Source of the DNA: Escherichia coli | Lineage (GTDB): Bacteria > Pseudomonadota > Gammaproteobacteria > Enterobacterales > Enterobacteriaceae | Reading direction: 5' to 3' (one strand) | NCBI RefSeq assembly: GCF_016903815.1 | Contig: NZ_CP069973.1 | DNA length: 64,000 bases | In this document: positions 15,987-63,717 of the stretch, piece by piece | Position numbering within the stretch: the first letter of the stretch is position 1 | Layout: every line of letters starts with the position of its first letter | Notes under the pieces: generated by a model | Seen by the model: only the letters and a program-made list of their open reading frames with translations | What the model was told of the DNA's origin: nothing | The model's database searches: none | Position numbers and translations under genes: made by a program

Positions 15987-16613
15987 ATGCTTTGGTCGTT
16001 TATCGCTGTCTGTCTTTCCGCATGGCTATCTGTGGATGCATCGTATCGTGGGCCAACCTGGCAACGCTGGGTGTTTAAACCGTTAACCCTTCTTCTCCTG
16101 TTGTTACTGGCCTGGCAAGCGCCGATGTTCGACGCCATTAGCTATCTGGTGCTGGCGGGGCTGTGCGCCTCACTGCTGGGCGATGCGCTAACCCTGTTGC
16201 CACGTCAACGTCTGATGTACGCCATCGGCGCGTTTTTCCTCTCGCACCTGCTGTACACCATCTATTTCGCCAGTCAGATGACGCTCTCTTTCTTCTGGCC
16301 TCTGCCGTTGGTACTGCTGGTTCTGGGCGCGCTGTTACTGGCGATTATCTGGACGCGTCTGGAAGAGTATCGTTGGCCTATCTGCACGTTTATCGGCATG
16401 ACGCTGGTGATGGTGTGGCTGGCAGGTGAACTGTGGTTCTTCCGTCCGACCGCTCCGGCGCTCTCTGCGTTTGTCGGCGCTTCGTTGCTATTTATCAGTA
16501 ACTTTGTCTGGCTGGGTAGTCACTATCGCCGACGCTTCCGGGCAGATAACGCGATTGCTGCGGCCTGCTACTTTGCCGGTCATTTCCTCATCGTCCGCTC
16601 GCTGTATCTCTGA
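15987..16613 (+). CDS. yhhN: inner membrane protein YhhN
   Basis: 208-aa track ORF, polytopic membrane protein. Confidence 0.85.
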
Positions 16614-16619
16614 TAAAAC

Positions 16620-16651
16620 TTGACTCTGGAGTCGACTCCAGAGTGTATCCT
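16620..16651 (+). promoter_or_regulatory. zntA promoter with ZntR (MerR-family) operator
   Basis: -35 TTGACT (16620-16625), perfect palindrome actctggagtcgactccagagt (16623-16644), 20-bp spacer typical of MerR promoters, -10 tatcct. Confidence 0.8.
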
Positions 16652-16686
16652 TCGGTTAATGAGAAAAAACTTAACCGGAGGATGCC

Positions 16687-18885
16687 ATGTCGACTCCTGA
16701 CAATCACGGCAAGAAAGCCCCTCACTTTGCTGCGTTCAAACCGCTAACCACGGTACAGAACGCCAACGACTGTTGCTGCGACGGCGCATGTTCCAGCACG
16801 CCAACGCTCTCTGAAAACGTCTCCGGCACCCGCTATAGCTGGAAAGTCAGCGGCATGGACTGCGCCGCCTGTGCGCGCAAGGTAGAAAATGCCGTGCGCC
16901 AGCTTGCAGGCGTGAATCAGGTGCAGGTGTTGTTCGCCACCGAAAAACTGGTGGTCGATGCCGACAATGACATCCGTGCCCAGGTTGAATCTGCGGTGCA
17001 AAAAGCGGGCTATTCCCTGCGCGATGAACAGGCCGCCGACGAACCGCAAACATCACGCCTGAAAGAGAATTTGCCGCTGATTACGCTAATCGTGATGATG
17101 GCAATCAGCTGGGGTCTGGAGCAGTTTAATCATCCGTTCGGGCAACTGGCGTTTATCGCGACCACGCTGGTTGGGCTGTACCCGATTGCTCGTCAGGCAT
17201 TACGGCTGATCAAATCCGGCAGCTACTTCGCTATTGAAACCTTAATGAGCGTAGCCGCTATTGGTGCGCTGTTTATTGGCGCAACGGCTGAAGCTGCGAT
17301 GGTGTTGCTGCTGTTTTTGATTGGTGAACGACTGGAAGGCTGGGCCGCCAGCCGCGCGCGTCAGGGCGTTAGCGCGTTAATGGCGCTGAAACCAGAAACC
17401 GCCACGCGCCTGCGTAACGGTGAGCGGGAAGAGGTGGCGATTAACAGCCTGCGCCCTGGCGATGTGATTGAAGTCGCCGCAGGTGGACGTTTGCCTGCCG
17501 ACGGTAAACTGCTCTCACCGTTTGCCAGTTTTGATGAAAGCGCCCTGACCGGCGAATCCATTCCGGTGGAGCGCGCAACGGGCGATAAAGTCCCTGCTGG
17601 TGCCACCAGCGTAGACCGTCTGGTAACGCTGGAAGTGCTGTCAGAACCGGGTGCCAGCGCCATTGACCGGATTCTGAAACTGATCGAAGAAGCCGAAGAG
17701 CGTCGCGCACCCATTGAGCGGTTTATCGACCGTTTCAGCCGTATCTATACGCCCGCGATTATGGCCGTCGCTCTGCTGGTGACGCTGGTGCCACCGCTGC
17801 TGTTTGCCGCCAGCTGGCAGGAGTGGATTTATAAAGGGCTGACGCTGCTGCTGATTGGCTGCCCGTGTGCGTTAGTTATCTCAACGCCTGCGGCGATTAC
17901 CTCCGGGCTGGCAGCAGCAGCGCGTCGTGGGGCGTTAATTAAAGGCGGAGCGGCGCTGGAACAACTGGGTCGTGTTACCCAGGTGGCGTTTGATAAAACC
18001 GGTACGCTGACCGTCGGTAAACCGCGCGTTACCGCGATTCATCCGGCAACGGGTATTAGTGAATCCGAACTGCTGACACTGGCAGCGGCGGTCGAGCAAG
18101 GCGCGACGCATCCACTGGCGCAAGCCATTGTGCGCGAAGCACAGGTTGCTGAACTCGCCATTCCCGCCGCCCAATCACAGCGGGCGCTGGTTGGGTCTGG
18201 CATTGAAGCGCAGGTTAACGGTGAGCGCGTGTTGATATGCGCTGCCGGAAAACATCCGGCTGTTGCATTTGCTGGTTTGATTAATGAACTGGAAAGCGCC
18301 GGGCAAACGGTAGTGCTGGTAGTGCGTAACGATGACGTGCTTGGCGTAATTGCATTGCAGGATACCCTACGCGCCGATGCTGCAACTGCCATCAGTGAAC
18401 TGAACGCGCTGGGAGTTAAAGGAGTGATCCTCACCGGCGATAATCCACGCGCAGCGGCGGCAATCGCCGGGGAACTGGGGCTGGAATTTAAAGCGGGCCT
18501 CTTGCCGGAAGATAAAGTCAAAGCGGTGACCGAGCTGAATCAACATGCGCCGCTGGCGATGGTCGGTGATGGTATTAACGACGCGCCAGCGATGAAAGCT
18601 GCCGCCATCGGGATTGCAATGGGTAGCGGCACAGACGTGGCGCTGGAAACCGCCGATGCAGCATTAACCCATAACCACCTGCGCGGCCTGGTGCAAATGA
18701 TTGAACTGGCACGCGCCACTCACGCCAATATCCGCCAGAACATCACTATTGCGCTGGGGCTGAAGGGCGTTTTCCTCGTCACGACGCTGTTAGGGATGAC
18801 CGGACTGTGGCTGGCAGTGCTGGCAGATACCGGTGCGACGGTGCTGGTGACGGCGAATGCGTTAAGGCTGTTGCGCAGAAAATAA
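16687..18885 (+). CDS. zntA: Zn/Cd/Pb-translocating P-type ATPase ZntA
   Basis: 732-aa track ORF; GMDCAAC metal-binding motif, CPC, DKTGTLT. Confidence 0.97.
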   Translation: MSTPDNHGKKAPHFAAFKPLTTVQNANDCCCDGACSSTPTLSENVSGTRYSWKVSGMDCAACARKVENAVRQLAGVNQVQVLFATEKLVVDADNDIRAQVESAVQKAGYSLRDEQAADEPQTSRLKENLPLITLIVMMAISWGLEQFNHPFGQLAFIATTLVGLYPIARQALRLIKSGSYFAIETLMSVAAIGALFIGATAEAAMVLLLFLIGERLEGWAASRARQGVSALMALKPETATRLRNGEREEVAINSLRPGDVIEVAAGGRLPADGKLLSPFASFDESALTGESIPVERATGDKVPAGATSVDRLVTLEVLSEPGASAIDRILKLIEEAEERRAPIERFIDRFSRIYTPAIMAVALLVTLVPPLLFAASWQEWIYKGLTLLLIGCPCALVISTPAAITSGLAAAARRGALIKGGAALEQLGRVTQVAFDKTGTLTVGKPRVTAIHPATGISESELLTLAAAVEQGATHPLAQAIVREAQVAELAIPAAQSQRALVGSGIEAQVNGERVLICAAGKHPAVAFAGLINELESAGQTVVLVVRNDDVLGVIALQDTLRADAATAISELNALGVKGVILTGDNPRAAAAIAGELGLEFKAGLLPEDKVKAVTELNQHAPLAMVGDGINDAPAMKAAAIGIAMGSGTDVALETADAALTHNHLRGLVQMIELARATHANIRQNITIALGLKGVFLVTTLLGMTGLWLAVLADTGATVLVTANALRLLRRK

Positions 18886-23205: not shown

Positions 23206-23793
23206 ATGTATCGGATAGTTCTGGGGAAAGTTTCGACCTTAAGCGCAGCTCCTCTGCCACCGGGTTTACGCGAGCAAGCACCGCAAGGTCCACGACGTGA
23301 ACGCTGGCTGGCGGGGCGTGCATTGCTTTCGCACACGCTTTCCCCGCTACCGGAGATCATCTATGGCGAACAAGGCAAACCGGCATTCGCGCCGGAAACG
23401 CCGCTATGGTTCAACTTAAGCCATAGCGGTGACGATATAGCCCTGCTGTTGAGCGATGAAGGCGAAGTCGGCTGCGATATCGAAGTGATTCGCCCGCGCG
23501 CCAACTGGCGCTGGCTGGCGAACGCCGTGTTCAGCCTCGGGGAACACGCTGAGATGGACGCCGTGCATCCTGATCAGCAACTGGAAATGTTCTGGCGCAT
23601 CTGGACGCGCAAAGAAGCCATCGTTAAACAGCGTGGCGGCAGCGCCTGGCAAATCGTCAGCGTAGACAGCACCTATAACTCCTCGCTGTCAGTCAGCCAT
23701 TGTCAGCTGGAAAATTTAAGCCTGGCGATCTGCACCCCTACCCCCTTTACGCTCACCGCCGACAGTGTGCAATGGATCGATTCAGTTAACTGA
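23206..23793 (+). CDS. acpT: 4'-phosphopantetheinyl transferase AcpT
   Basis: 195-aa track ORF. Confidence 0.85.
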   Translation: MYRIVLGKVSTLSAAPLPPGLREQAPQGPRRERWLAGRALLSHTLSPLPEIIYGEQGKPAFAPETPLWFNLSHSGDDIALLLSDEGEVGCDIEVIRPRANWRWLANAVFSLGEHAEMDAVHPDQQLEMFWRIWTRKEAIVKQRGGSAWQIVSVDSTYNSSLSVSHCQLENLSLAICTPTPFTLTADSVQWIDSVN

Positions 23794-23838
23794 TCCGCCC
23801 ACCCGACTGCCCATCTATTGATCCAGAACAGGTAATCA

Positions 23839-23866
23839 GTATGACGAATACTTAAAATCGTCATAC
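23839..23866. promoter_or_regulatory. NikR operator upstream of nikA
   Basis: Perfect GTATGA-N16-TCATAC palindrome gtatgacgaatacttaaaatcgtcatac read from sequence. Confidence 0.85.
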
Positions 23867-23903
23867 TTATTTCCGCCATCTATTTTAATCCATTGGGGTT
23901 ACC

Positions 23904-25478
23904 ATGTTCTCTACACTCCGCCGCACTCTATTTGCGCTGCTGGCTTGTGCGTCTTTTATCGTCCATGCCGCTGCACCAGATGAAATCACCACCGCCTGGC
24001 CGGTGAATGTCGGGCCACTAAACCCGCACCTTTACACGCCTAACCAGATGTTCGCCCAGAGCATGGTTTATGAACCATTGGTGAAATATCAGGCAGACGG
24101 TTCGGTGATCCCGTGGCTGGCAAAAAGCTGGACTCATTCTGAAGATGGCAAAACCTGGACCTTCACCCTGCGTGATGACGTGAAATTCTCCAACGGCGAA
24201 CCGTTTGATGCAGAGGCGGCGGCAGAAAACTTCCGCGCAGTGCTCGATAACCGTCAACGTCACGCCTGGCTGGAGCTGGCAAACCAGATTGTTGATGTCA
24301 AAGCACTCAGTAAAAACGAGCTGCAAATCACCCTGAAAAGCGCCTACTATCCTTTCCTGCAAGAACTGGCCCTGCCCCGTCCTTTCCGTTTTATCGCACC
24401 CTCGCAGTTTAAAAACCACGAAACCATGAACGGAATTAAAGCGCCGATTGGCACCGGGCCGTGGGTTTTACAGGAATCGAAACTGAATCAGTACGATGTC
24501 TTCGTCCGTAACGAAAACTACTGGGGCGAAAAGCCAGCGATTAAAAAGATCACCTTTAACGTGATCCCGGACCCGACTACCCGCGCGGTGGCGTTTGAAA
24601 CTGGCGATATCGACCTGCTGTACGGAAACGAAGGGTTATTACCGCTCGATACCTTCGCCCGCTTTAGCCAGAACCCGGCTTACCACACCCAACTGTCACA
24701 GCCGATCGAAACCGTGATGCTGGCGCTCAATACCGCCAAAGCCCCCACCAACGAGCTGGCCGTACGTGAAGCTCTTAATTACGCGGTAAACAAAAAATCG
24801 CTGATTGATAACGCGTTGTATGGCACCCAGCAGGTCGCCGACACCCTGTTTGCTCCTTCTGTACCCTACGCCAACCTCGGCCTGAAACCGCGCCAGTACG
24901 ATCCGCAGAAAGCGAAAGCGTTGCTGGAAAAAGCCGGTTGGACGTTGCCTGCGGGCAAAGACATCCGCGAGAAAAATGGTCAGCCGCTGCGCATTGAACT
25001 GTCGTTCATCGGCACCGATGCGTTAAGTAAATCGATGGCGGAAATCATTCAGGCTGATATGCGCCAGGTTGGCGCAGATGTCTCGCTGATTGGCGAAGAA
25101 GAGAGCAGTATCTATGCTCGTCAGCGCGACGGTCGTTTTGGCATGATTTTCCACCGCACCTGGGGCGCGCCATACGATCCACACGCCTTCCTGAGTTCAA
25201 TGCGCGTACCGTCGCACGCTGATTTCCAGGCACAGCAAGGATTAGCCGACAAGCCGCTGATTGATAAAGAGATCGGCGAAGTGCTGGCAACCCATGACGA
25301 AACGCAACGTCAGGCGCTGTATCGCGACATTCTGACCCGTCTGCATGACGAGGCGGTTTATCTGCCTATCAGTTACATCTCGATGATGGTGGTATCAAAA
25401 CCGGAGCTGGGTAACATCCCCTACGCGCCGATCGCCACCGAAATTCCGTTCGAACAGATTAAACCGGTGAAACCTTAA
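23904..25478 (+). CDS. nikA: periplasmic nickel-binding protein NikA
   Basis: 524-aa track ORF with signal peptide. Confidence 0.95.
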
Positions 25479-26418
25479 TGTTGCGTTACGTATTACGCCG
25501 CTTTCTGCTGCTGATCCCGATGGTGCTCGCCGCCTCGGTGATCATTTTTCTGATGCTGCGCCTCGGCACCGGCGACCCGGCGCTTGATTATTTGCGTCTG
25601 TCTAACCTGCCGCCGACGCCGGAGATGCTGGCCTCTACACGCACCATGCTGGGGCTGGATCAGCCGCTGTACGTCCAGTACGGCACCTGGTTGTGGAAGG
25701 CGCTGCATCTTGACTTTGGTATCTCATTCGCCAGCCAACGCCCGGTGCTGGACGATATGCTGAACTTCCTGCCCGCCACGCTGGAACTTGCAGGTGCCGC
25801 GCTGGTATTAATTCTGCTCACTTCCGTGCCGCTCGGTATCTGGGCGGCGCGCCATCGCGACCGTCTGCCGGATTTCGCCGTACGTTTCATCGCGTTTCTC
25901 GGCGTGTCGATGCCTAACTTCTGGCTGGCGTTTTTACTGGTGATGGCGTTTTCGGTGTATCTGCAATGGCTACCCGCGATGGGCTACGGCGGCTGGCAGC
26001 ACATCATTTTGCCTGCGGTTTCCATTGCCTTTATGTCGCTGGCGATTAACGCGCGACTGCTGCGCGCCAGTATGCTGGACGTCGCCGGTCAGCGTCACGT
26101 CACCTGGGCGCGGCTACGCGGCCTGAATGACAAACAGACCGAGCGTCGTCATATTCTGCGCAATGCCTCGCTGCCGATGATCACCGCCGTGGGGATGCAC
26201 ATTGGCGAACTGATTGGCGGGACGATGATTATCGAAAACATCTTTGCCTGGCCGGGCGTCGGGCGCTATGCGGTGTCGGCGATTTTTAACCGTGACTATC
26301 CGGTGATCCAGTGCTTTACGCTGATGATGGTGGTGGTTTTTGTGGTCTGTAATTTGATTGTTGATTTGCTCAACGCCGCGCTGGACCCGCGCATTCGTCG
26401 TCATGAAGGAGCCCACGC

Positions 26419-26422
<4 letters not shown>
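25478..26422 (+). CDS. nikB: nickel ABC transporter permease NikB
   Basis: 314-aa track ORF. Confidence 0.95.
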
Positions 26423-29225
<2,803 letters not shown>

Positions 29226-29427: not shown

Positions 29428-32400
29428 ATGAGCGGAAAACCGGCGGCGCGTCAGGGCGACATGACGCAGTATGGCGGTAGCATTGTCCAGGGTTCAGCCG
29501 GGGTGCGCATCGGTGCCCCCACCGGCGTGGCCTGTTCGGTGTGCCCCGGCGGGGTGACGTCCGGCCATCCGGTCAATCCGCTGCTCGGCGCGAAGGTCCT
29601 TCCCGGCGAAACCGACCTTGCCCTGCCCGGCCCGCTGCCGTTCATCCTCTCCCGCACCTACAGCAGTTACCGGACAAAAACGCCCGCGCCGGTGGGGAAC
29701 CTCGGCCCCGGCTGGAAAATGCCTGCGGATATCCGCTTACAGCTGCGCGATAACACACTGATACTCAGTGATAACGGCGGCAGAAGCCTGTATTTTGAGC
29801 ACCTGTTTCCCGGTGAGGACGGTTACAGCCGCAGCGAGTCACTCTGGCTGGTGCGCGGCGGCGTGGCGAAACTGGATGAAGGTCACCGGCTGGCCGCACT
29901 CTGGCAGGCGCTGCCGGAAGAGCTTCGCCTGAGTCCGCATCGTTATCTGGCGACGAACAGTCCGCAGGGGCCGTGGTGGGTACTCGGCTGGTGTGAGCGG
30001 GTGCCGGAGGCGGATGAGGTGCTGCCTGCGCCGCTGCCGCCGTACCGGGTACTGACCGGGCTGGTGGACCGCTTCGGGCGCACACAGACGTTCCACCGTG
30101 AGGCTGGCGGCGAAATCACCGGCGTGACGGATGGTGCCGGGCGTCACTTCCGGCTGGTACTGACCACGCAGGCGCAGCGGGCAGAAGAAGCCCGGCAGCA
30201 GGCCTCTTCCGGCGGGACGGAACCGTCCGCTTTTCCTGATACCCTGCCGGGTTACACCGAATATGGCCGGGACAACGGCATCCGTCTGTCTGCCGTGTGG
30301 CTGACGCACGACCCGGAATACCCGGAGAATTTACCTGCCGCGCCGCTGGTGCGCTATGGCTGGACGCCACGCGGCGAACTGGCGGCGGTGTATGACCGCA
30401 GCAATACACAGGTGCGCAGCTTTACTTACGATGATAAATACCGGGGCCGGATGGTGGCGCACCGTCACACGGGCCGGCCGGAAATCCGTTACCGTTACGA
30501 CAGCGACGGGCGGGTGACAGAACAGCTAAACCCGGCAGGCTTAAGCTACACGTATCAGTATGAGAAAGACCGCATCACCATCACCGACAGTATGGACCGC
30601 CGTGAAGTGCTGCACACGCAGGGCGAAGGCGGGCTGAAGCGGGTGGTGAAAAAGGAACACGCGGACGGCAGCGTCACGCAGAGTCAGTTTGATGCGGTGG
30701 GCAGGCTTAAGGCACAGACGGATGCCGCAGGCCGGACGACTGAGTACAGCCCGGATGTGGTGACGGGACTCATCACGCGCATCACCACACCGGATGGCAG
30801 GGCATCGGCATTTTACTATAACCACCACAACCAGTTAACGTCAGCCACCGGGCCTGACGGGCTGGAAATACGCCGGGAATATGATGAATCCGGCCGTCTG
30901 ATTCAGGAAACCGCACACAACGGCGATATCACCCGCTACCGTTATGATAATCCACACAGTGACTTACCCTGCGCAACGGAAGATGCCACCGGCAGCCGGA
31001 AAACCATGACATGGAGCCGTTACGGTCAGTTGCTGACCGTCACTGACTGTTCCGGTTATGTAACCCGTTATGACCATGACCGTTTTGGTCAGGTGACGGC
31101 GGTGCACCGCGAGGAAGGGCTGAGTCAGTACCGCGCATACGACAGCCGTGGACAGTTAATTGCGGTGAAAGACACGCAGGGCCATGAAACGCGGTATGAA
31201 TACAACGCCGCCGGTGACCTGACCGCCGTCATTGCCCCGGACGGCAGCAGAAACGGGACACAGTACGATGCGTGGGGAAAGGCCATCCGTACCACACAGG
31301 GCGGTCTGACGCGCAGTATGGAATACGATGCTGCCGGACGGGTCATCCGCCTGACCAGTGAAAACGGCAGCCACACCACCTTCCGTTACGATGTACTCGA
31401 CCGGCTGATACAGGAAACCGGCTTTGACGGCCGCACACAGCGTTATCACCACGACCTGACCGGCAAACTTATCCGCAGCGAGGATGAGGGGCTGGTCACC
31501 CACTGGCACTATGACGAAGCAGACCGCATCACACAGCGAACGGTGAATGGTGAAACCGCAGAACAGTGGCGGTACGACGAACGCGGCTGGCTGACACAAA
31601 TCAGCCATCTCAGCGAAGGCCACCGGGTGACGGTGCATTACGGGTATGATGAGAAAGGCCGCCTGACCGGTGAGCGCCAGACGGTGCATCACCCGCAGAC
31701 GGAAGCACTGCTCTGGCAGCATGAAACCAGACACGCTTACAACGCGCAGGGACTGGCGAACCGCTGTATACCGGACAGCCTGCCCGCCGTGGAATGGCTG
31801 ACTTACGGCAGCGGCTGGCTGGCAGGCATGAAACTCGGCGACACACCGCTGGTGGATTTCACCCGCGACCGCCTGCACCGGGAAACGCTGCGCAGCTTCG
31901 GCCGTTATGAACTCACCACCGCTTATACCTCTGCCGGGCAGTTACAGAGCCAGCACCTGAACAGCCTGCAGTATGACCGCGATTACACCTGGAACGACAA
32001 CGGCGAACTCATCCGCATCAGCAGCCCGCGACAGACCCGGAGTTACAGCTACAGCGACTCCGGCAGGCTGACCGGCGTCCACACCACCACCTCAAATCTG
32101 GATATCCGCATCCCGTATGCCACGGACCCGGCAGGCAACCGCCTGCCCGACCCGGAGCTGCACCCGGACATCACCCTCAGCATGTGGCCGGATAACCGTA
32201 TCGCCCGTGACGCGCACTATCTTTACCGGTATGACCGTCACGGCAGACTGACGGAGAAAACCGACCTCATCCCGGAAGGGGTTATCCGCACGGATGATGA
32301 GCGGACTCACCGGTACCATTACGACAGTCAGCACCGGCTGGTGCACTACACGCGGACACAATATGCAGAGCCGCTGGTCGAAAGTCGCTATCTTTACGAC

Positions 32401-33615
32401 CCGCTGGGCCGCAGGGTGGCAAAACGGGTGTGGCGGCGTGAACGGGACCTGACGGGCTGGATGTCGCTGTCACGGAAACCGGAAGTGACCTGGTACGGCT
32501 GGGACGGCGACCGGCTGACCACGATACAGAACGACAGAACCCGCATCCAGACGGTTTATCAGCCGGGGAGCTTCACGCCACTCATCAGGGTCGAAACCGC
32601 CACCGGTGAGCTGGCGAAAACGCAGCGCCGCAGCCTGGCGGATGCGCTTCAGCAGTCCGGCGGCGAAGACGGTGGCAGTGTGGTGTTCCCGCCGGTGCTG
32701 GTGCAGATGCTCGACCGGCTGGAAAGTGAAACCCTGGCTGACCGGGTGAGTGAGGAAAGCCGCCGCTGGCTGGCATCGTGCGGCCTGACGGTGGAGCAGA
32801 TGCAAAACCAGATGGACCCGGTGTACACGCCGGCGCGAAAAATCCACCTGTACCACTGCGACCATCGCGGCCTGCCGCTGGCGCTTGTCAGCACGGAAGG
32901 GGCAACAGAATGGTACGCAGAATACGATGAATGGGGTAACCAGCTGAGTGAGGATAACCCGCACCAGCTGCAGCAGCTCATCCGCCTGCCGGGTCAGCAG
33001 TATGATGAGGAGTCAGGCCTGTATTACAACCGCCACCGCTATTATGACCCGCTGCAGGGGCGGTATATCACTCAGGATCCGATTGGACTGAAGGGGGGAT
33101 GGAATTTTTATCAGTATCCGTTAAATCCGGTTCAGTATATAGATTCAATGGGACTGGCATCTAAATATGGACACTTAAATAATGGCGGATATGGAGCGAG
33201 ACCCAACAAACCGCCTACGCCCGATCCAAGTAAGTTGCCAGACATAGCGAAACAATTAAGACTGCCATATCCTATTGACCAGGCCAGTAGTGCGCCTAAT
33301 GTTTTCAAAACATTCTTCAGAGCATTAAGTCCTTACGATTACACACTGTATTGCAGGAAGTGGGTAAAACCCAATCTGACTTGTACGCCGCAGGATGATC
33401 CCCAGTATCCAGGGATGGAGACAAAGACAGCAAGTGATTACCTGCCACAGACAACTTGGCCAACAACTCAATTACCACCAGGATATACTTGTGCAGAACC
33501 CTATTTATTCCCAGACATTAATAAACCCGATGGGCCAGCAACAGCAGGGATAGATGATTTGGGTGAAATTTTAGCTAAAATGAAACAGAGAACATCGAGA
33601 GGAATAAGAAAATGA
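29428..33615 (+). CDS. rhsB: Rhs family polymorphic toxin (PAAR-like N-terminus, YD-repeat core, variable C-terminal toxin tip)
   Basis: 1395-aa track ORF; YD repeats; conserved core end ...[16 protein letters not shown] (DPIGL at 33076-33090); locus position after nikR. Confidence 0.93.
32701..33143 (+). repeat. Rhs core 3' segment, copy 1 of about 443-bp direct repeat
   Basis: Near-identical to 37551..37993 (same reading frame, a few substitutions). Confidence 0.85.
33091..33615 (+). other. variable C-terminal toxin domain of RhsB (after DPxGL motif), function unknown
   Basis: Sequence after DPIGL is AT-richer and Pro/Tyr/Cys-rich with no recognisable catalytic motif. Confidence 0.7.
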
Positions 33616-34181
33616 AAAGAGCTTTGTTCTTTTTGCTGATGATATTCGTTAGTTTTGGTGTTATAGCTAATTGCGAAACACAAGCTAAAGATCAAGATTG
33701 CTTTACCATTTTCACTAAGGGTACTATTTTTTCCGCGTTTCCTGTCTTAAATAATAAAACCATGTGGAGATGGTATCAGAATGAGGACATAGGTGAGTAT
33801 TATTGGCAAACAGAACTTGGTATATGTAAAAATAACAAATTCACACCAAGCGGGGCGAGACTCTTAATTCGCGTCGGATCACTACGCCTTAATGAAAATC
33901 ATGCAACCAAAGGAACGTTGCAGGAGTTGCTAAATACAGCAGAAAAAACGGCGTTTCTCGGCGATCGGTTTAGAAGTTATATAAGAGCGGGTATCTATCA
34001 AAAAAAGAGCAGTGATCCAGCTCAGTTGTTGGCAGTCCTTGATAATTCAATCATGGTTAAATATTTTAAAGATGAGAAGCCAACTTATGCTCGAATGACA
34101 GCACATCTCCCGAACAAAGATGAGTCTTACGAATGTTTAACAAAAGTACAGCATGAACTGCTTCGTAGTGAAGAAAAATAA
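33612..34181 (+). CDS. putative cognate immunity protein of RhsB toxin tip; has N-terminal signal peptide
   Basis: ATG overlaps rhsB stop (ATGA at 33612-33615); 189 aa; [20 protein letters not shown] signal-like N-terminus. Confidence 0.65.
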
Positions 34182-34202
34182 AATCTCTTCCTGAGAAAAT
34201 AA

Positions 34203-34340
34203 ATTAACTATTCGAAAAAATATGTTCTTAATGGGTATCCAGGAACACCAGAAGGTCGATTTGGAAAAATGGATTCCGATGGTAAGAATATCATATATTC
34301 TGAATGTAATGTTTTACCCACAACTTTTGAGATTCGATAG
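34203..34340 (+). pseudogene. possible relic of a toxin C-terminal tail (open frame without start)
   Basis: 45-codon open frame ...YSKKYVLNGYPGTPEGRFGKMDSDGKNIIYSECNVLPTTFEIR ending 10 nt before the next small ORF start. Confidence 0.3.
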
Positions 34341-34349
34341 GTGTAGAGC

Positions 34350-34697
34350 ATGAGAAACTCACTAATATTACTTATTATGATATTGTTTACAATATCACAC
34401 TCAGTATTTGGAAAAGAAAATTCAGTGGAAATTTTAGTAAATAGTCGTGAAATGGCTTTGGAATTATCATATGTTTATATTAAATATATATACGGGAAAG
34501 AAAAAGCAGAATTTCAGAAACCATATAGTATTACAGATGACAATAATTGTTGGAAAATCGAGGGAAAACAACCGAAGACGTTAGGAGGAAATTTTACAAT
34601 ACTAATAGCGAAAAAAGATGGGCAAGCGTTGGATGTAATACACAAAATAATCCACTGTTCAAACGATTCAAATATTTTACCAAGGTGTGTTTCATAA
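34350..34697 (+). CDS. small secreted NTF2-like putative orphan immunity protein
   Basis: 115-aa track ORF with signal peptide; paralogous to ORF 36296..36562. Confidence 0.6.
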   Translation: MRNSLILLIMILFTISHSVFGKENSVEILVNSREMALELSYVYIKYIYGKEKAEFQKPYSITDDNNCWKIEGKQPKTLGGNFTILIAKKDGQALDVIHKIIHCSNDSNILPRCVS

Positions 34698-35279
34698 CTA
34701 TTTTGTGTACAATATGACTCTACATATCGACGAAAAAACCACTTGATTTGACAGGAACACATTCAAAAAAATTTCTTTTTCATTTCAGGAGCGATTTTCA
34801 TCTGTTACTTGAAGTATCTGTGAGATTAAGTGACTCCCCCTAACGTCGTACTAAATAGTAATTACTGGCCATACCGGGAGCAGTATTCGGCGCTTCCCAC
34901 ATGCAGCAGAATAACCGCATCAGCGAAGATGTATTGTATTTTTACTATCACAATGTGTACGGACGGTTTATGGAAAAGAATGAACATTAGATACGCGATG
35001 CGGCGGCAGATTACACGGTTATCACTACGATAGCCAATACTGGCTGGTGCATTACCGCCGTGAACAATAGGACGCCGTACTGCTGGAAATTTCTTACCTT
35101 TATGACTCCCCGCACCGCCGTATCGGGAAACGGGAAGCAGTCAAGATGAGGCTGATATAATGTGTGGAATGCCTGAGTATTTTTAGAATAGAGGGTAATA
35201 TGTTTGATAGAATATATCTTGGTGATCGACCAATAAAAAAATTGAATTTGATTTATGGAGCAAACAAATTAGAATTCAG

Positions 35280-35564
35280 GTGAATTTAATCTCAAGGATA
35301 GCCTATGGTACAACAGAATGGAATTTTTATAATAATGAAGACTTAGAAAATGGTTATTTAGTATTTACCGATGTTACTTTCTTTAATATAATACCTAATG
35401 GCTCCATTCCAGATGATTATATAGTTTCAATAATAACAGATAAAGTCAATGTTGAATGTTTTGAATCAACTATAGTTGCTGTTGGTCAAATTCGAAACAC
35501 AAATGTTGGTGACATTGATAATATTGGTGAATGTCAAATTCTCATCAGGTATAAAGACCGCTAG
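35280..35564 (+). CDS. hypothetical small protein, possibly 3' part of a split gene
   Basis: 94-aa track ORF starting at GTG that overlaps the TGA of a 27-codon ORF (35200..35283) in a GTGA junction. Confidence 0.35.
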   Translation: MNLISRIAYGTTEWNFYNNEDLENGYLVFTDVTFFNIIPNGSIPDDYIVSIITDKVNVECFESTIVAVGQIRNTNVGDIDNIGECQILIRYKDR

Positions 35565-35848
35565 ATTGAGAATAAACTCAAAGAAAAAATAATTGAATAA
35601 CCATGTCAGTTATAGACATTTTAGATGGAACGAACCAGAGAAGGTCATGCCTCCGAGCTGGGTTATGTGGACACGGAGCTTTAGCGTAGTGAACTCAACG
35701 AAGCAAGCCGGAAACCTGCCAGCCCTTATCAGCACGTAAGGGACAACAGCGTAGTACGCAGAATAATCCTACCCACGTAGTATGGACACAGGCCTAAGCG
35801 AGGTTCTGGTTTTCAAATTTTTCAGGAGTTAGATGATTGGAGGAACAG

Positions 35849-36214
35849 ATGATAAGAATCGCATTTTTAATAACCAATAAATTTCTTGAGATAGATAGTA
35901 CCACTCTTGCTGGATATGATTTTAGCGGGATGAATCTACATCGTGCCACCCTCAATGGTTATTGTCTTGATGGGGCGAAATTTGAAAAAACTCATTTAAG
36001 AAATGTAATGATTCAACATACATCAACTAGAAATGCTGTCTTTCACAATGCGGCTCTGATGAATGCTATTCTGAATAACTCAGATTTCACTGGAAGTGAT
36101 TGTAGTAATTCAAGGTCAATAGGTGAAAATTTTAAAGCAATAGATAATCATGGGAAAGATATAATAAATGGAAAAGGATTGTCTAATGTTTGCAAAATAC
36201 ATGACAACGTATAA
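35849..36214 (+). CDS. pentapeptide-repeat protein (possible immunity/target-protection protein)
   Basis: Track ORF 35837..36214; ATG at 35849 preceded by ggagg; tandem 5-residue periodicity ATLNG YCLDG AKFEK THLRN ... AALMN AILNN SDFTG. Confidence 0.7.
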   Translation: MIRIAFLITNKFLEIDSTTLAGYDFSGMNLHRATLNGYCLDGAKFEKTHLRNVMIQHTSTRNAVFHNAALMNAILNNSDFTGSDCSNSRSIGENFKAIDNHGKDIINGKGLSNVCKIHDNV

Positions 36215-36295
36215 GAAAATATTATTCAGAACCTATGTGATTGTATCTTTGTTTTTACATACAACACATGGGCGCAGTGTAATAATATTATTATA

Positions 36296-36562
36296 ATGCG
36301 CAAGTATGAATGTGAGGGGAAATACACCGTTAGAAATTTGGTAAAAAATAAAGCTATAGCATTGGAATTAGCTGAGATGTATGTTAAAAATCGTTATGGG
36401 CATGATGCCGCAGAAGAAGAAAAACCATACAAAATCATGGAATTACCAACAAGTTGGATTGTTGAAGGCACCATTGAATCAGACCAAATTGCTGGTAGGG
36501 TTTTTATTATAGAAATAGGCAAAAATGACGGGAGAATTCTAAATTTTGGCCACGGAAAATAA
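36296..36562 (+). CDS. NTF2-like putative orphan immunity protein, paralog of 34350..34697 lacking signal peptide
   Basis: 88-aa track ORF; aligns by eye with the 34350 ORF (ALELAEMYVKNRYG.../KPY.I...W..EG...DG..L). Confidence 0.55.
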   Translation: MRKYECEGKYTVRNLVKNKAIALELAEMYVKNRYGHDAAEEEKPYKIMELPTSWIVEGTIESDQIAGRVFIIEIGKNDGRILNFGHGK

Positions 36563-36666
36563 GTATGTAAGGATAAACAAACATCGTGTGTGCTGATGGC
36601 AGAGTAGGTGGAGGACTCCAGACAGTCAAACGATAGAAAAAGATAGTCTTTATGGAGGTTCCTGCA

Positions 36667-37509
36667 ATGTCAAATACATACCAGAAAAGAAAGGCAAGTA
36701 AAGAGTATGGTTTATATAATCAATGTAAGAAACTAAATGATGATGAATTATTTCGCTTACTTGATGATCACAATTCCTTGAAAAGGATTTCATCTGCCAG
36801 AGTATTACAGTTAAGAGGTGGTCAAGACGCTGTTAGATTGGCAATTGAGTTCTGCTCTGATAAAAATTATATCCGTAGAGATATCGGAGCATTTATACTC
36901 GGGCAAATAAAAATTTGCAAAAAATGCAAAGATAATGTGTTTAATATTTTGAACAATATGGCATTGAATGATAAGAGCGCTTGCGTTCGAGCTACGGCAA
37001 TCGAGTCAACGGCTCAGCGATGCAAGAAAAACCCAATTTATTCACCTAAAATAGTAGAACAATCTCAAATTACTGCTTTTGATAAATCGACTAATGTCAG
37101 ACGTGCTACAGCATTTGCTATTTCTGTTATCAATGATAAAGCAACAATTCCACTATTGATTAATCTGTTAAAAGATCCAAATGGAGATGTCAGAAACTGG
37201 GCCGCATTTGCAATAAATATCAATAAATATGATAATAGTGATATTAGGGATTGTTTTGTGGAGATGCTTCAGGATAAAAATGAGGAAGTCCGTATTGAAG
37301 CAATAATCGGACTTTCCTACAGAAAAGATAAAAGGGTTTTATCTGTTTTATGCGATGAGTTAAAAAAAAATACTGTTTATGATGATATCATTGAAGCTGC
37401 GGGTGAATTAGGTGATAAAACGCTACTTCCTGTTTTAGATACTATGTTGTACAAGTTTGATGACAATGAAATTATAACTTCCGCTATTGATAAGCTGAAG
37501 CGTTCATAG
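36667..37509 (+). CDS. HEAT-repeat (PBS-lyase type) protein, YibA-like putative Rhs immunity protein
   Basis: Track ORF 36652..37509; ATG at 36667 has ggagg RBS and gives 280 aa; repeated D.N..VR..AA.AL motifs. Confidence 0.8.
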   Translation: MSNTYQKRKASKEYGLYNQCKKLNDDELFRLLDDHNSLKRISSARVLQLRGGQDAVRLAIEFCSDKNYIRRDIGAFILGQIKICKKCKDNVFNILNNMALNDKSACVRATAIESTAQRCKKNPIYSPKIVEQSQITAFDKSTNVRRATAFAISVINDKATIPLLINLLKDPNGDVRNWAAFAININKYDNSDIRDCFVEMLQDKNEEVRIEAIIGLSYRKDKRVLSVLCDELKKNTVYDDIIEAAGELGDKTLLPVLDTMLYKFDDNEIITSAIDKLKRS

Positions 37510-37550
37510 CGTGAGTTGCCTATGCACAGTGGGGGATTCCCGCCGGCACG

Positions 37551-37993
37551 GTGCAGATGCTCGACCGGCTGGAAAGTGAAATCCTGGCTGACCGGGTGAG
37601 TGAGGAAAGCCGCCGCTGGCTGGCATCGTGCGGCCTGACGGTGAAGCAGATGCAAAACCAGATGGACCCGGTGTACACGCCGGCGCGAAAAATCCACCTG
37701 TACCACTGCGACCATCGCGGCCTGCCGCTGGTGCTTATCAGCACGGAAGGGGCAACAGAATGGTGCGCAGAATACGATGAATGGGGCAACCTGCTGAATG
37801 AAGAGAACCCGCAACAGCTGCAGCAACTCATCCGCCTGCCGGGTCAGCAGTATGATGAGGAGTCCGGCCTGTATTACAACCGCCACCGCTATTATGATCC
37901 GCTGCAGGGGAGGTATATCACTCAGGATTCGATTGGGCTGAAGGGGGGATGGAATTTTTATGAGTATCCGTTGAATCCGGTTCAGTATATAGA
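37551..37993 (+). repeat. Rhs core 3' segment, copy 2 of direct repeat
   Basis: Matches 32701..33143; DPIGL motif altered to DSIGL in this copy. Confidence 0.85.
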
Positions 37994-63363: not shown

Positions 63364-63717
63364 ATGTCATTTCTGTTACCCATCCAACTGTTCAAAATTC
63401 TTGCTGATGAAACCCGTCTGGGCATCGTTTTACTGCTCAGCGAGCTGGGAGAATTATGCGTCTGCGATCTCTGTACTGCCCTCGATCAGTCGCAGCCCAA
63501 GATATCCCGCCACCTGGCATTGCTGCGTGAAAGTGGGCTATTGCTGGATCGCAAGCAGGGTAAGTGGGTTCATTACCGCTTATCACCGCATATTCCATCA
63601 TGGGCCGCGAAAATTATTGAGCAGGCCTGGCGATGCGAACAGGAAAAGGTTCAGGTGATTGTCCGCAACCTGGCTCGACAAAATTGTTCCGAAGACAGTA
63701 AGAACATTTGTAGTTAA
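63364..63717 (+). CDS. arsR: arsenical resistance operon repressor ArsR
   Basis: 117-aa track ORF with ELCVCDLC metal-binding motif. Confidence 0.95.
   Translation: MSFLLPIQLFKILADETRLGIVLLLSELGELCVCDLCTALDQSQPKISRHLALLRESGLLLDRKQGKWVHYRLSPHIPSWAAKIIEQAWRCEQEKVQVIVRNLARQNCSEDSKNICS

What the first reader, a model, noticed from the sequence alone, without database searches (positions are those of the whole stretch)
16620..16651. Textbook metal-sensor operators are intact (ZntR at zntA; NikR at 23839..23866)
Both palindromes are perfect in this sequence, so metal regulation of zntA and nikABCDE is expected to be functional. This is a known feature, noted for completeness.
Basis: partly seen in the sequence, partly recalled or inferred. 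Interest (0 to 1): 0.15.

Follow-up and report, generated by a model that had tools for sequence, protein, structure and literature searches.

The report
Known ZntR and NikR operators, intact
These are the well-known binding sites through which E. coli senses zinc (ZntR at the zntA promoter) and nickel (NikR at the nikA promoter); they match the K-12 reference base for base, so the finding is correct but ordinary.

Summary
The window is E. coli chromosome, identical over 28.5 kb to strain 7/2.

- **ZntR site.** 16620-16651 is the zntA promoter: TTGACT, a 20-bp spacer, then TATCCT. It holds the perfect 22-bp palindrome ACTCTGGAGTCGACTCCAGAGT at 16623-16644. This equals the published ZntR consensus and the K-12 sequence.
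- **NikR site.** 23839-23866 is GTATGA-N16-TCATAC, the published NikR operator. The perfect repeat actually runs 10-N10-10 (23838-23867). It lies 37 nt before nikA and is identical to K-12.
- **Genes.** zntA, nikABCDE and nikR are intact, and NikR is identical to the K-12 protein. zntR lies outside the window but is present in 5425 of 5426 complete E. coli genomes.
- **Conservation.** The two intergenic regions are essentially invariant across about 5400 E. coli genomes. The exact ZntR 22-mer sits in the same promoter frame in 105 species, with a ZntA homolog downstream in 101.

One thing seen in passing may be new. A conserved RNA hairpin pairs the zntA -10 hexamer with the zntA Shine-Dalgarno sequence. 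It can only form in transcripts arriving from the upstream gene yhhN.

The parts
15987..16613 (+). yhhN, the co-oriented upstream gene. Its stop codon ends 6 bp before the zntA -35 hexamer.
   Evidence: RefSeq annotation of the identical strain 7/2 sequence. The protein is identical to K-12. YhhN is co-oriented and directly upstream in 104/105 species loci.
16620..16625 (+). zntA promoter -35 hexamer TTGACT. It overlaps the first 3 nt of the palindrome.
   Evidence: Sequence. PzntA -35 = TTGACT is stated in PMC3431237. TTGACT is invariant in 105/105 species loci.
16623..16644 (.). ZntR operator: the perfect 22-bp palindrome ACTCTGGAGTCGACTCCAGAGT.
   Evidence: It equals the published ZntR consensus (PMC1526738) and is identical to K-12. 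The exact 22-mer is found in 105 species representatives, with a ZntA homolog downstream in 101.
16626..16645 (+). [quoted passage not shown]
   Evidence: Counted. A 20-bp spacer for PzntA is given in PMC3431237, PMC7911910 and PMC1526738. One paper says 19 bp (PMC9189660).
16646..16651 (+). zntA promoter -10 hexamer TATCCT.
   Evidence: Sequence. A TAnnnT or CATACT hexamer sits at the same distance in all 105 species loci. The assignment follows the published 20-bp spacer; the transcription start was not verified here.
16646..16689 (+). Side observation: a potential RNA hairpin. Its 5' arm is 16646-16659 (the -10 hexamer plus 8 nt). Its 3' arm is 16672-16685 and covers the Shine-Dalgarno GGAGG.
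   Evidence: -17.6 kcal/mol, z = -4.4. Conserved in 77 distinct sequences. 85.9% of cells are paired, against 29-58% in the slid controls.
16687..18885 (+). zntA, the Zn/Cd/Pb-exporting P1B-type ATPase. It is intact at 732 aa.
   Evidence: NCBIfam NF033775 P_type_ZntA, 1449.5 bits against a cutoff of 1240. There are 11 substitutions relative to K-12 and no stops. The CCCDGAC, GMDC, CPC, DKTGT, TGES and GDGIND motifs are all present.
23818..23831 (+). FNR-like site TTGAT-N4-AACAG. This is an inference; its centre would lie at -41.5 if the start is near 23866.
   Evidence: Sequence. It is invariant between E. coli, Escherichia sp. MOD1-EC7003 and Citrobacter sp. R56. FNR control of nikA comes from my own knowledge and was not tested here.
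23839..23866 (.). NikR operator GTATGA-N16-TCATAC. The perfect inverted repeat extends to 23838-23867.
   Evidence: the 10-N10-10 extent is read from the sequence; the repeat tool reports 17-nt arms at 88%. Published operator in PMC7055735 and PMC4486848. Identical to K-12. The half-sites are invariant while the spacer varies in Citrobacter.
23853..23858 (+). Candidate nikA -10 hexamer TAAAAT, lying inside the operator spacer (an inference).
   Evidence: Read from the sequence. The corresponding Citrobacter hexamer is TAGAAT. The consensus scan finds no full sigma-70 promoter here, as expected for an activator-dependent promoter.
23904..28819 (+). nikABCDE, the nickel ABC importer. All five genes are intact.
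   Evidence: Lengths equal K-12, with no internal stops and 0-10 substitutions per protein. NikA matches TIGR02294 at 838 bits. RefSeq annotation.
28824..29225 (+). nikR, the nickel-responsive ribbon-helix-helix repressor, 133 aa.
   Evidence: Identical to the K-12 protein. NF002815 at 235 bits and TIGR02793 at 225 bits.

Best explanation
The two sites are the canonical cis-elements of two E. coli metal-homeostasis circuits, unchanged from the reference strain.

(1) PzntA is a MerR-type promoter. The ZntR dimer binds the 22-bp palindrome that fills the over-long 20-bp spacer between TTGACT and TATCCT. Without zinc the hexamers are out of phase and the promoter is weak or repressed. Zn(II)-, Cd(II)- or Pb(II)-bound ZntR kinks and under-winds the spacer, which realigns the -35 and -10 for sigma-70 RNA polymerase and switches on the ZntA efflux ATPase.

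(2) At PnikA, Ni(II)-loaded NikR tetramer places its two ribbon-helix-helix domains in the major grooves of the GTATGA and TCATAC half-sites, two helical turns apart. The operator covers the likely -10 and start site, so it blocks RNA polymerase and shuts off the NikABCDE importer when nickel is sufficient.

Shown here: sequence identity to the characterised sites, the promoter geometry, intact target genes and nikR, and conservation within and between species. Inferred from the literature: metal-dependent binding, DNA distortion and promoter occlusion.
For: - **Identity to K-12.** The 101-bp zntA promoter/leader is 100% identical, and so is the whole acpT-nikA intergenic region.
- **Match to published sites.**
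- **Genomic context.** yhhN-zntA and acpT-nikABCDE-nikR follow the RefSeq annotation of an identical genome segment.
- **Protein families.** ZntA, NikA and NikR all score above curated NCBIfam cutoffs.
- **Conservation in E. coli.** The 79-bp zntA intergenic query is at least 99% identical in 5364/5425 genomes. The 113-bp nikA intergenic query is at least 99% identical in 5193/5425. The flanking 401-501-bp queries are mostly only 95-99% identical.
- **Conservation across genera.** The exact ZntR 22-mer occurs in 105 species representatives of Enterobacteriaceae and Erwiniaceae. In all of them it follows TTG to give TTGACT. A -10-like hexamer lies 20 bp from the -35, and a ZntA homolog lies downstream in 101/105; the other four loci hold too little DNA on that side.
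- **NikR half-sites.** They are invariant while 4 of 16 spacer positions differ in Citrobacter sp. R56.
- **Mechanism.** MerR-family activation by distortion is reviewed in PMC9909328. The NikR-operator structure is summarised in PMC6332059 and PMC4486848.
Against: Nothing contradicts it, but there are limits.
- zntR is not in the window, so ZntR integrity in this particular genome is unknown.
- The transcription start sites of zntA and nikA were not verified here; three attempts to find them in genome-wide start-site data sets failed.
- The generic sigma-70 scan finds no promoter at either site. This is expected, because it only allows 16-18-bp spacers and PnikA depends on an activator.
- One paper gives the PzntA spacer as 19 bp rather than 20 (PMC9189660).
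Confidence: 0.96

Rival explanations
1. The zntA palindrome is primarily an RNA hairpin or terminator for the upstream yhhN transcript rather than a protein operator.
For: The only other perfect 22-bp palindrome in the window is an intrinsic terminator, that of uspA at 55404-55425 followed by TTTGCTTTTT. The yhhN stop codon lies 6 bp before the -35, so there is no room for a separate terminator. In a read-through RNA the palindrome is predicted to fold.
Against: On the + strand no U-tract follows the palindrome, and the scan flags it only on the - strand, where no gene ends. The sequence is an exact match to the experimentally derived ZntR site. Its fixed register with TTGACT and a -10 hexamer in 105 species is what an operator inside a promoter predicts. 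A dual role is not excluded.
Confidence: 0.03
2. The cis sites are intact but regulation is not functional in this strain, because a trans-acting factor is missing or defective. ZntR is the candidate.
For: No ZntR-like coding sequence is in the window; the best tblastn E-value is 3.0. Intact operators alone do not prove function.
Against: zntR matches in 5425 of 5426 complete E. coli genomes, with at least 80% coverage in 5424. nikR is in the window and encodes a protein identical to K-12 NikR. ZntA keeps all its catalytic and metal-binding motifs.
Confidence: 0.03
3. The matches are chance palindromes with no function.
For: Short inverted repeats are common: there are seven perfect 8-N12-8 repeats in the window.
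Against: 0 of 100 shuffles contain the 22-mer even with up to 3 mismatches allowed. Both sites sit at the expected distance upstream of the cognate genes. Both are identical to characterised sites and conserved across genera.
Confidence: 0.005

Closest known systems
E. coli K-12 PzntA / ZntR (Brocklehurst et al. 1999; Outten et al. 1999, as cited in PMC3431237 and PMC9909328)
   Same: The 101 bp from the end of yhhN to codon 5 of zntA are identical: TTGACT, a 20-bp spacer holding the 22-bp palindrome, then TATCCT.
   Different: Nothing differs in cis. The ZntA protein carries 11 substitutions relative to K-12, none in a known motif.
E. coli K-12 nikA operator / NikR (Chivers & Sauer 2000; Schreiter et al. 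2006, as cited in PMC7055735)
   Same: The acpT-nikA intergenic region is identical, including GTATGA-N16-TCATAC. The NikR protein is also identical.
   Different: Only coding changes downstream: NikA has L2F and four others, NikD three and NikE ten.
Tn501/Tn21 PmerT / MerR and E. coli PcopA / CueR (MerR-family metal promoters)
   Same: A dyad operator lies inside an over-long -35/-10 spacer. The -35 TTGACT is the same as in PmerT. Activation is by DNA distortion (PMC3431237; PMC9909328).
   Different: Those promoters have 19-bp spacers and different palindromes. PzntA is the 20-bp exception.
Helicobacter pylori NikR operators
   Same: The same ribbon-helix-helix tetramer family and the same Ni-dependent binding.
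   Different: HpNikR is pleiotropic and acts as both activator and repressor. Its operators are less symmetric. The site here is the simple E. coli type.
IS10 / IS50 'fold-back inhibition' of read-through transcripts
   Same: This applies only to the side observation. Sequence upstream of the element's own start site pairs with the ribosome-binding site, so only externally initiated transcripts are translationally silenced.
   Different: Here the setting is a chromosomal metal-efflux gene, and the anti-Shine-Dalgarno arm is the promoter's own -10 hexamer. No experiment supports the function.

Membership tests
MerR-family metal-responsive promoter (ZntR-PzntA) | [quoted passage not shown] | tested here: met
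   The perfect 11+11 palindrome at 16623-16644 lies inside TTGACT...TATCCT.
MerR-family metal-responsive promoter (ZntR-PzntA) | Over-long spacer of 19-20 bp (20 bp for PzntA) | tested here: met
   20 bp counted. Published values. The same spacing holds in 105 species loci.
MerR-family metal-responsive promoter (ZntR-PzntA) | Operator sequence equals the characterised ZntR site | tested here: met
   Exact match to ACTCTGGAGTCGACTCCAGAGT (PMC1526738) and to K-12.
MerR-family metal-responsive promoter (ZntR-PzntA) | Controls a heavy-metal P1B-type efflux ATPase | tested here: met
   ZntA equivalog hit at 1449.5 bits, with the start codon 35 nt after the -10. ZntA is downstream in 101/105 species.
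MerR-family metal-responsive promoter (ZntR-PzntA) | Cognate ZntR regulator encoded in the same genome | tested here: inconclusive
   Not in the 64-kb window. In K-12 it lies about 168 kb away. It is present in 5425/5426 E. coli genomes.
MerR-family metal-responsive promoter (ZntR-PzntA) | Zn/Cd/Pb-dependent activation by DNA distortion | not testable with these tools
   Needs in vitro transcription, footprinting or reporter assays.
NikR operator (E. coli type) | GTATGA and TCATAC half-sites separated by 16 bp | tested here: met
   23839-23866 matches exactly. Published.
NikR operator (E. coli type) | Located in the nikA promoter, overlapping the core promoter | tested here: inconclusive
   It ends 37 nt before the nikA ATG, and a TAAAAT hexamer lies in its spacer. 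The overlap with the real -10 and start site is inferred, because the start site was not verified.
NikR operator (E. coli type) | NikR (ribbon-helix-helix plus C-terminal Ni-binding domain) encoded at the locus | tested here: met
   nikR at 28824-29225 is identical to K-12. NF002815 scores 235 bits.
NikR operator (E. coli type) | Ni(II)-dependent binding and repression | not testable with these tools
   Needs a gel shift, footprint or reporter assay.

The most novel reading that the evidence does not exclude
The zntA promoter/leader carries a second, undescribed layer of control. The -10 hexamer and the 8 nt after it (16646-16659) are complementary to the zntA Shine-Dalgarno region (16672-16685). 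The -10 hexamer is never part of a PzntA-initiated RNA, so this hairpin can form only in transcripts that read through from yhhN, which ends 6 bp before the -35. It would then silence zntA translation from ZntR-independent read-through, leaving ZntA synthesis dependent on ZntR-activated initiation. This is a fold-back insulator of the IS10 type, built into a MerR promoter.

Support:
- In this window the hairpin scores -17.6 kcal/mol with the 5' arm and -1.1 without it.
- Across 77 distinct sequences from 105 species the medians are -20.0 and -2.2 kcal/mol.
- 85.9% of cells are paired, against 29-58% in slid controls, and 23 cells changed on both sides.
- Pantoea and Erwinia carry non-homologous GC-rich hairpins at the same place. 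These start further downstream and mostly survive in the promoter's own transcript (-13 to -15 kcal/mol), so they do not fit the read-through-only model.
- yhhN is co-oriented and adjacent in 104/105 loci.
- There is no Rfam family and no paper in the held library.

Other possibilities are a 3'-end stabiliser for yhhN mRNA, a DNA-level protein site, or a structure with no function.
Probability: 0.3. Interest if true: 0.45.

Novelty: already known. Interest (0 to 1): 0.08.

Why it matters
The finding itself matters little. It confirms that this E. coli strain carries the reference zinc-efflux and nickel-uptake control elements, which is useful only as a sanity check on annotation. The cross-species data do show how strongly the ZntR operator is constrained: it is invariant in 105 species while the adjacent -10 and leader vary. 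The side observation would matter somewhat more if true. A promoter whose own -10 element doubles as an anti-Shine-Dalgarno sequence would explain how a tightly metal-gated efflux pump is kept off despite having no terminator between it and a co-oriented upstream gene. It would also bear on PzntA-based zinc and cadmium biosensors, which differ in how much upstream sequence they include.

Tried and rejected
- **Sigma-70 and terminator scans.** They found no promoter at either site. The scan only allows 16-18-bp spacers, so this is uninformative for a 20-bp MerR promoter or an activator-dependent promoter. It flagged the ZntR palindrome as terminator-like only on the minus strand, where no gene ends, and I rejected that reading.
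- **Start-site data.** I looked for experimentally mapped zntA starts in supplementary tables of three genome-wide studies: PMC4782308, PMC3415461 and PMC4161252. There were no entries or no files held.
- **Primary structure paper.** The NikR-operator paper PMC1564233 is not held.
- **RNAalifold.** On 71 leader sequences it returned no consensus structure, probably because indels in the MAFFT alignment shift the register. I counted a hand-drawn helix instead. Because that helix was derived from these same sequences, the count is biased towards it.
- **Rfam.** Only sub-threshold microRNA noise appeared at the zntA leader.
- **Fur-box idea.** I asked whether the inner part of the leader inverted repeat in other genera (TAATGA...TCATTA) is a Fur-type box, prompted by a Y. 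pestis paper listing a Fur-like box for yhhN-zntA. The spacing does not fit, and the motif is absent from E. coli, so I did not pursue it.
- **Nearby NikR matches.** The 2-mismatch NikR-pattern hits at 33000 and 37850 are chance matches inside Rhs repeats.

Full report
**Observation.** The sequence at 16620-16651 is TTGACTCTGGAGTCGACTCCAGAGTGTATCCT. The repeat finder reports a perfect 11+11-nt palindrome with no gap at 16623-16644. The sequence at 23839-23866 is GTATGACGAATACTTAAAATCGTCATAC. Its hexamer half-sites GTATGA and TCATAC are perfect, and read directly from the sequence the perfect inverted repeat is longer, AGTATGACGA / TCGTCATACT at 23838-23867; the repeat tool reports a still longer imperfect repeat, 17-nt arms at 88%.

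Neither site is a chance match. The 22-mer occurs once in the window with up to three mismatches allowed, and never in 100 shuffles. The exact NikR pattern occurs once, and the two 2-mismatch hits are at chance level and lie inside Rhs repeats. Only one other perfect 22-bp palindrome exists in the 64 kb, and it is the uspA terminator at 55404-55425. That is a reminder that context, not symmetry alone, identifies an operator.

**What the locus is.** The window is E. coli chromosome. It is 100% identical over 28.5 kb to strain 7/2 (NZ_CP023820.1), and the gene order matches K-12 MG1655 from rsmD to rhsB. The first site lies in the 73-bp gap between yhhN (15987-16613) and zntA (16687-18885). The second lies in the 110-bp gap between acpT (23206-23793) and nikA (23904-25478). 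nikBCDE runs to 28819 and nikR occupies 28824-29225.

All these genes have the K-12 lengths and no internal stops. NikB, NikC, NikR and YhhN are identical to K-12. ZntA has 11 substitutions, none in the CCCDGAC, GMDC, CPC, DKTGT, TGES or GDGIND motifs. ZntA, NikA and NikR all score far above the curated NCBIfam cutoffs.

**Comparison with the published operators.** The 101 bp around the zntA promoter and the whole acpT-nikA intergenic region are identical to K-12, the strain in which both systems were characterised.

[quoted passage not shown] It gives a -35 of TTGACT and a 20-bp spacer for PzntA, the exception among MerR promoters, which otherwise have 19 bp (PMC3431237; PMC7911910). Counting in the window gives TTGACT, 20 bp, TATCCT. 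One recent paper calls the spacer 19 bp (PMC9189660), and I follow the majority. For NikR the literature gives GTATGA-N16-TCATAC (PMC7055735; PMC4486848). Both sites therefore match exactly.

**Conservation within E. coli.** The 79-bp yhhN-zntA intergenic query is at least 99% identical in 5364 of 5425 complete E. coli genomes. The 113-bp acpT-nikA query is at least 99% identical in 5193 of 5425. The surrounding 401-501-bp queries, which include coding sequence, are mostly only 95-99% identical.

**Conservation across genera.** A scan of one genome per species for the exact 22-mer found 105 species. They include Escherichia, Salmonella, Citrobacter, Enterobacter, Klebsiella, Raoultella, Kluyvera, Kosakonia, Lelliottia, Leclercia, Pluralibacter, Franconibacter, Trabulsiella, Yokenella, Pantoea and Erwinia. 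In all 105 the palindrome is preceded by TTG, giving TTGACT. A -10-like hexamer (TATCCT, TATGCT, CATACT and others) sits at the same 20-bp distance. A ZntA homolog lies directly downstream in 101; the other four loci hold too little DNA on that side. The operator is thus invariant while the -10 and the leader vary, as expected for a site contacted along its length by a dimer.

The zntA loci that happened to extend as far as nik gave a small cross-check for NikR. In Citrobacter sp. R56 (NikA 89% identical) the two half-sites and the upstream TTGATCCAGAACA are invariant, while 4 of the 16 spacer positions differ.

**Mechanism.** PzntA works as a MerR-type switch. The 20-bp spacer puts the -35 and -10 out of phase, so basal activity is low. 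ZntR sits on the palindrome between them. With Zn(II), and more weakly Cd(II) or Pb(II), it distorts and under-winds the spacer so that sigma-70 polymerase can engage both hexamers (PMC9909328; PMC9189660).

PnikA works by occlusion. Ni-loaded NikR tetramer inserts the beta-sheets of its two ribbon-helix-helix domains into the major groove at the two half-sites. In the window a TAAAAT hexamer (23853-23858) lies inside the operator spacer. A TTGAT-N4-AACAG element (23818-23831) lies where a class II FNR site would be if transcription starts near 23866. On that reading the operator would cover roughly -27 to +1. These positions are my inference from geometry; I could not find mapped start sites.

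What is shown here is identity, geometry, gene integrity and conservation. Metal-dependent binding is taken from the literature.

**Limits of the 'functional' claim.** nikR is in the window and encodes the K-12 protein, so the nickel circuit is complete in cis and in trans. zntR is not in the window; the best tblastn E-value is 3.0. In K-12 it lies about 168 kb away. It is a core gene, matched in 5425 of 5426 complete genomes, so its presence is very likely but not demonstrated for this genome.

**Something seen in passing.** The stretch from the -10 hexamer to the start codon folds into a 14-bp hairpin, UAUCCUUCGGUUAA / UUAACCGGAGGAUG, at -17.6 kcal/mol with z = -4.4. Its 3' arm contains the Shine-Dalgarno GGAGG, and its 5' arm begins with the -10 hexamer itself. 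A -10 hexamer is never transcribed from its own promoter, so the stem that hides the Shine-Dalgarno sequence can only exist in RNA started upstream. An RNA starting 7 nt after the -10 folds at only -1.1 kcal/mol.

yhhN ends 6 bp before the -35 with no room for a terminator. It is co-oriented and adjacent in 104 of 105 species loci. Among 77 distinct -10-to-ATG segments from the 105 species, the median folding energy is -20.0 kcal/mol with the 5' arm and -2.2 without it. At least 3 of 4 Shine-Dalgarno bases are paired in 73 of 77. On 71 aligned sequences a 17-pair helix has 85.9% of cells paired against 29-58% when slid by 1-3 columns. It has 23 cells changed on both sides against 4-14, and a covariation score of 0.139 against 0.037-0.081; no shuffle reached the observed values. 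Pantoea and Erwinia carry unrelated GC-rich hairpins at the same position, but those start further downstream and mostly survive in the promoter's own transcript (-13 to -15 kcal/mol), so they do not fit the read-through-only model.

Several caveats apply:
- The helix was drawn from these same sequences.
- RNAalifold on the MAFFT alignment gave no consensus structure.
- The species set is biased towards those with the exact operator.
- The E. coli start site is assumed, not verified.

No Rfam family and no paper in the held library covers it. The most attractive reading is translational insulation of zntA from yhhN read-through, analogous to IS10 fold-back inhibition (my own knowledge). I give it about 0.3.

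**Verdict.** The feature is textbook and already known. Interest is low.

Noticed in passing
window 16646-16689: A conserved RNA hairpin pairs the zntA -10 hexamer and the following 8 nt with the zntA Shine-Dalgarno region (-17.6 kcal/mol). It can only form in transcripts coming from upstream (yhhN). It is conserved with some compensatory changes in 77 distinct sequences from 105 species. Pantoea and Erwinia carry non-homologous GC-rich hairpins at the same place. Possibly it insulates zntA translation from read-through.
   Followed up: partly
window 16611-16625: The yhhN stop codon (TGA, 16611-16613) lies only 6 bp before the zntA -35 hexamer, so no terminator separates the two co-oriented genes. 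The same tight arrangement (9-40 nt from the end of the YhhN match to the palindrome) is seen in 102 of 105 species loci.
   Followed up: partly
window 55404-55425: This is the only other perfect 22-bp palindrome in the window, AACGCCCGCATATGCGGGCGTT followed by TTGCTTTTT. It lies just after uspA and is a textbook intrinsic terminator.
   Followed up: yes
window 23818-23831: TTGATCCAGAACAG is an FNR-like half-palindrome 8 bp upstream of the NikR operator. It is invariant between E. coli, Escherichia sp. MOD1-EC7003 and Citrobacter sp. R56. Its centre would be at -41.5 if nikA transcription starts near 23866.
   Followed up: partly
L103:4030-4175 (Escherichia sp. MOD1-EC7003): A roughly 113-bp insertion sits between the NikR operator and the nikA ribosome-binding site and is absent from the window. 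Its sequence (…GACTGAATCCCCAGGCGCTTACTAAAGTAAGTGACTGAGG…AAGTATGACGAGTAT) looks like an ERIC/IRU repeat (from memory). Its end, AGTATGACGA, equals the extended NikR half-site.
   Followed up: no
window 29428-40513: Directly after nikR comes an Rhs element: a core protein of 1395 aa followed by a string of orphan toxin-tip and immunity fragments (NTF2-fold immunity, pentapeptide, partial RHS core). An IS1 copy (39236-39933) and an ISAs1 transposase fragment (40115-40513) follow. This arrangement differs from K-12 rhsB.
   Followed up: no
window 63364-63717 and 52649-54148: Other metal-related genes lie in the same window. arsR, an As(III)-sensing ArsR/SmtB repressor at the start of arsRBC, sits at the far end. 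pitA, a phosphate transporter said (my own knowledge, not checked here) to co-transport divalent metal cations such as Zn, is also present. The ArsR operator upstream of arsR was not examined.
   Followed up: no
window 16687-18885 and 23904-28819: There are coding differences from K-12. ZntA has 11 substitutions, including Q13H in the N-terminal extension and a cluster at 494-529. NikA has L2F in the signal peptide plus four others. NikE has ten. None creates a stop or touches a known motif.
   Followed up: yes
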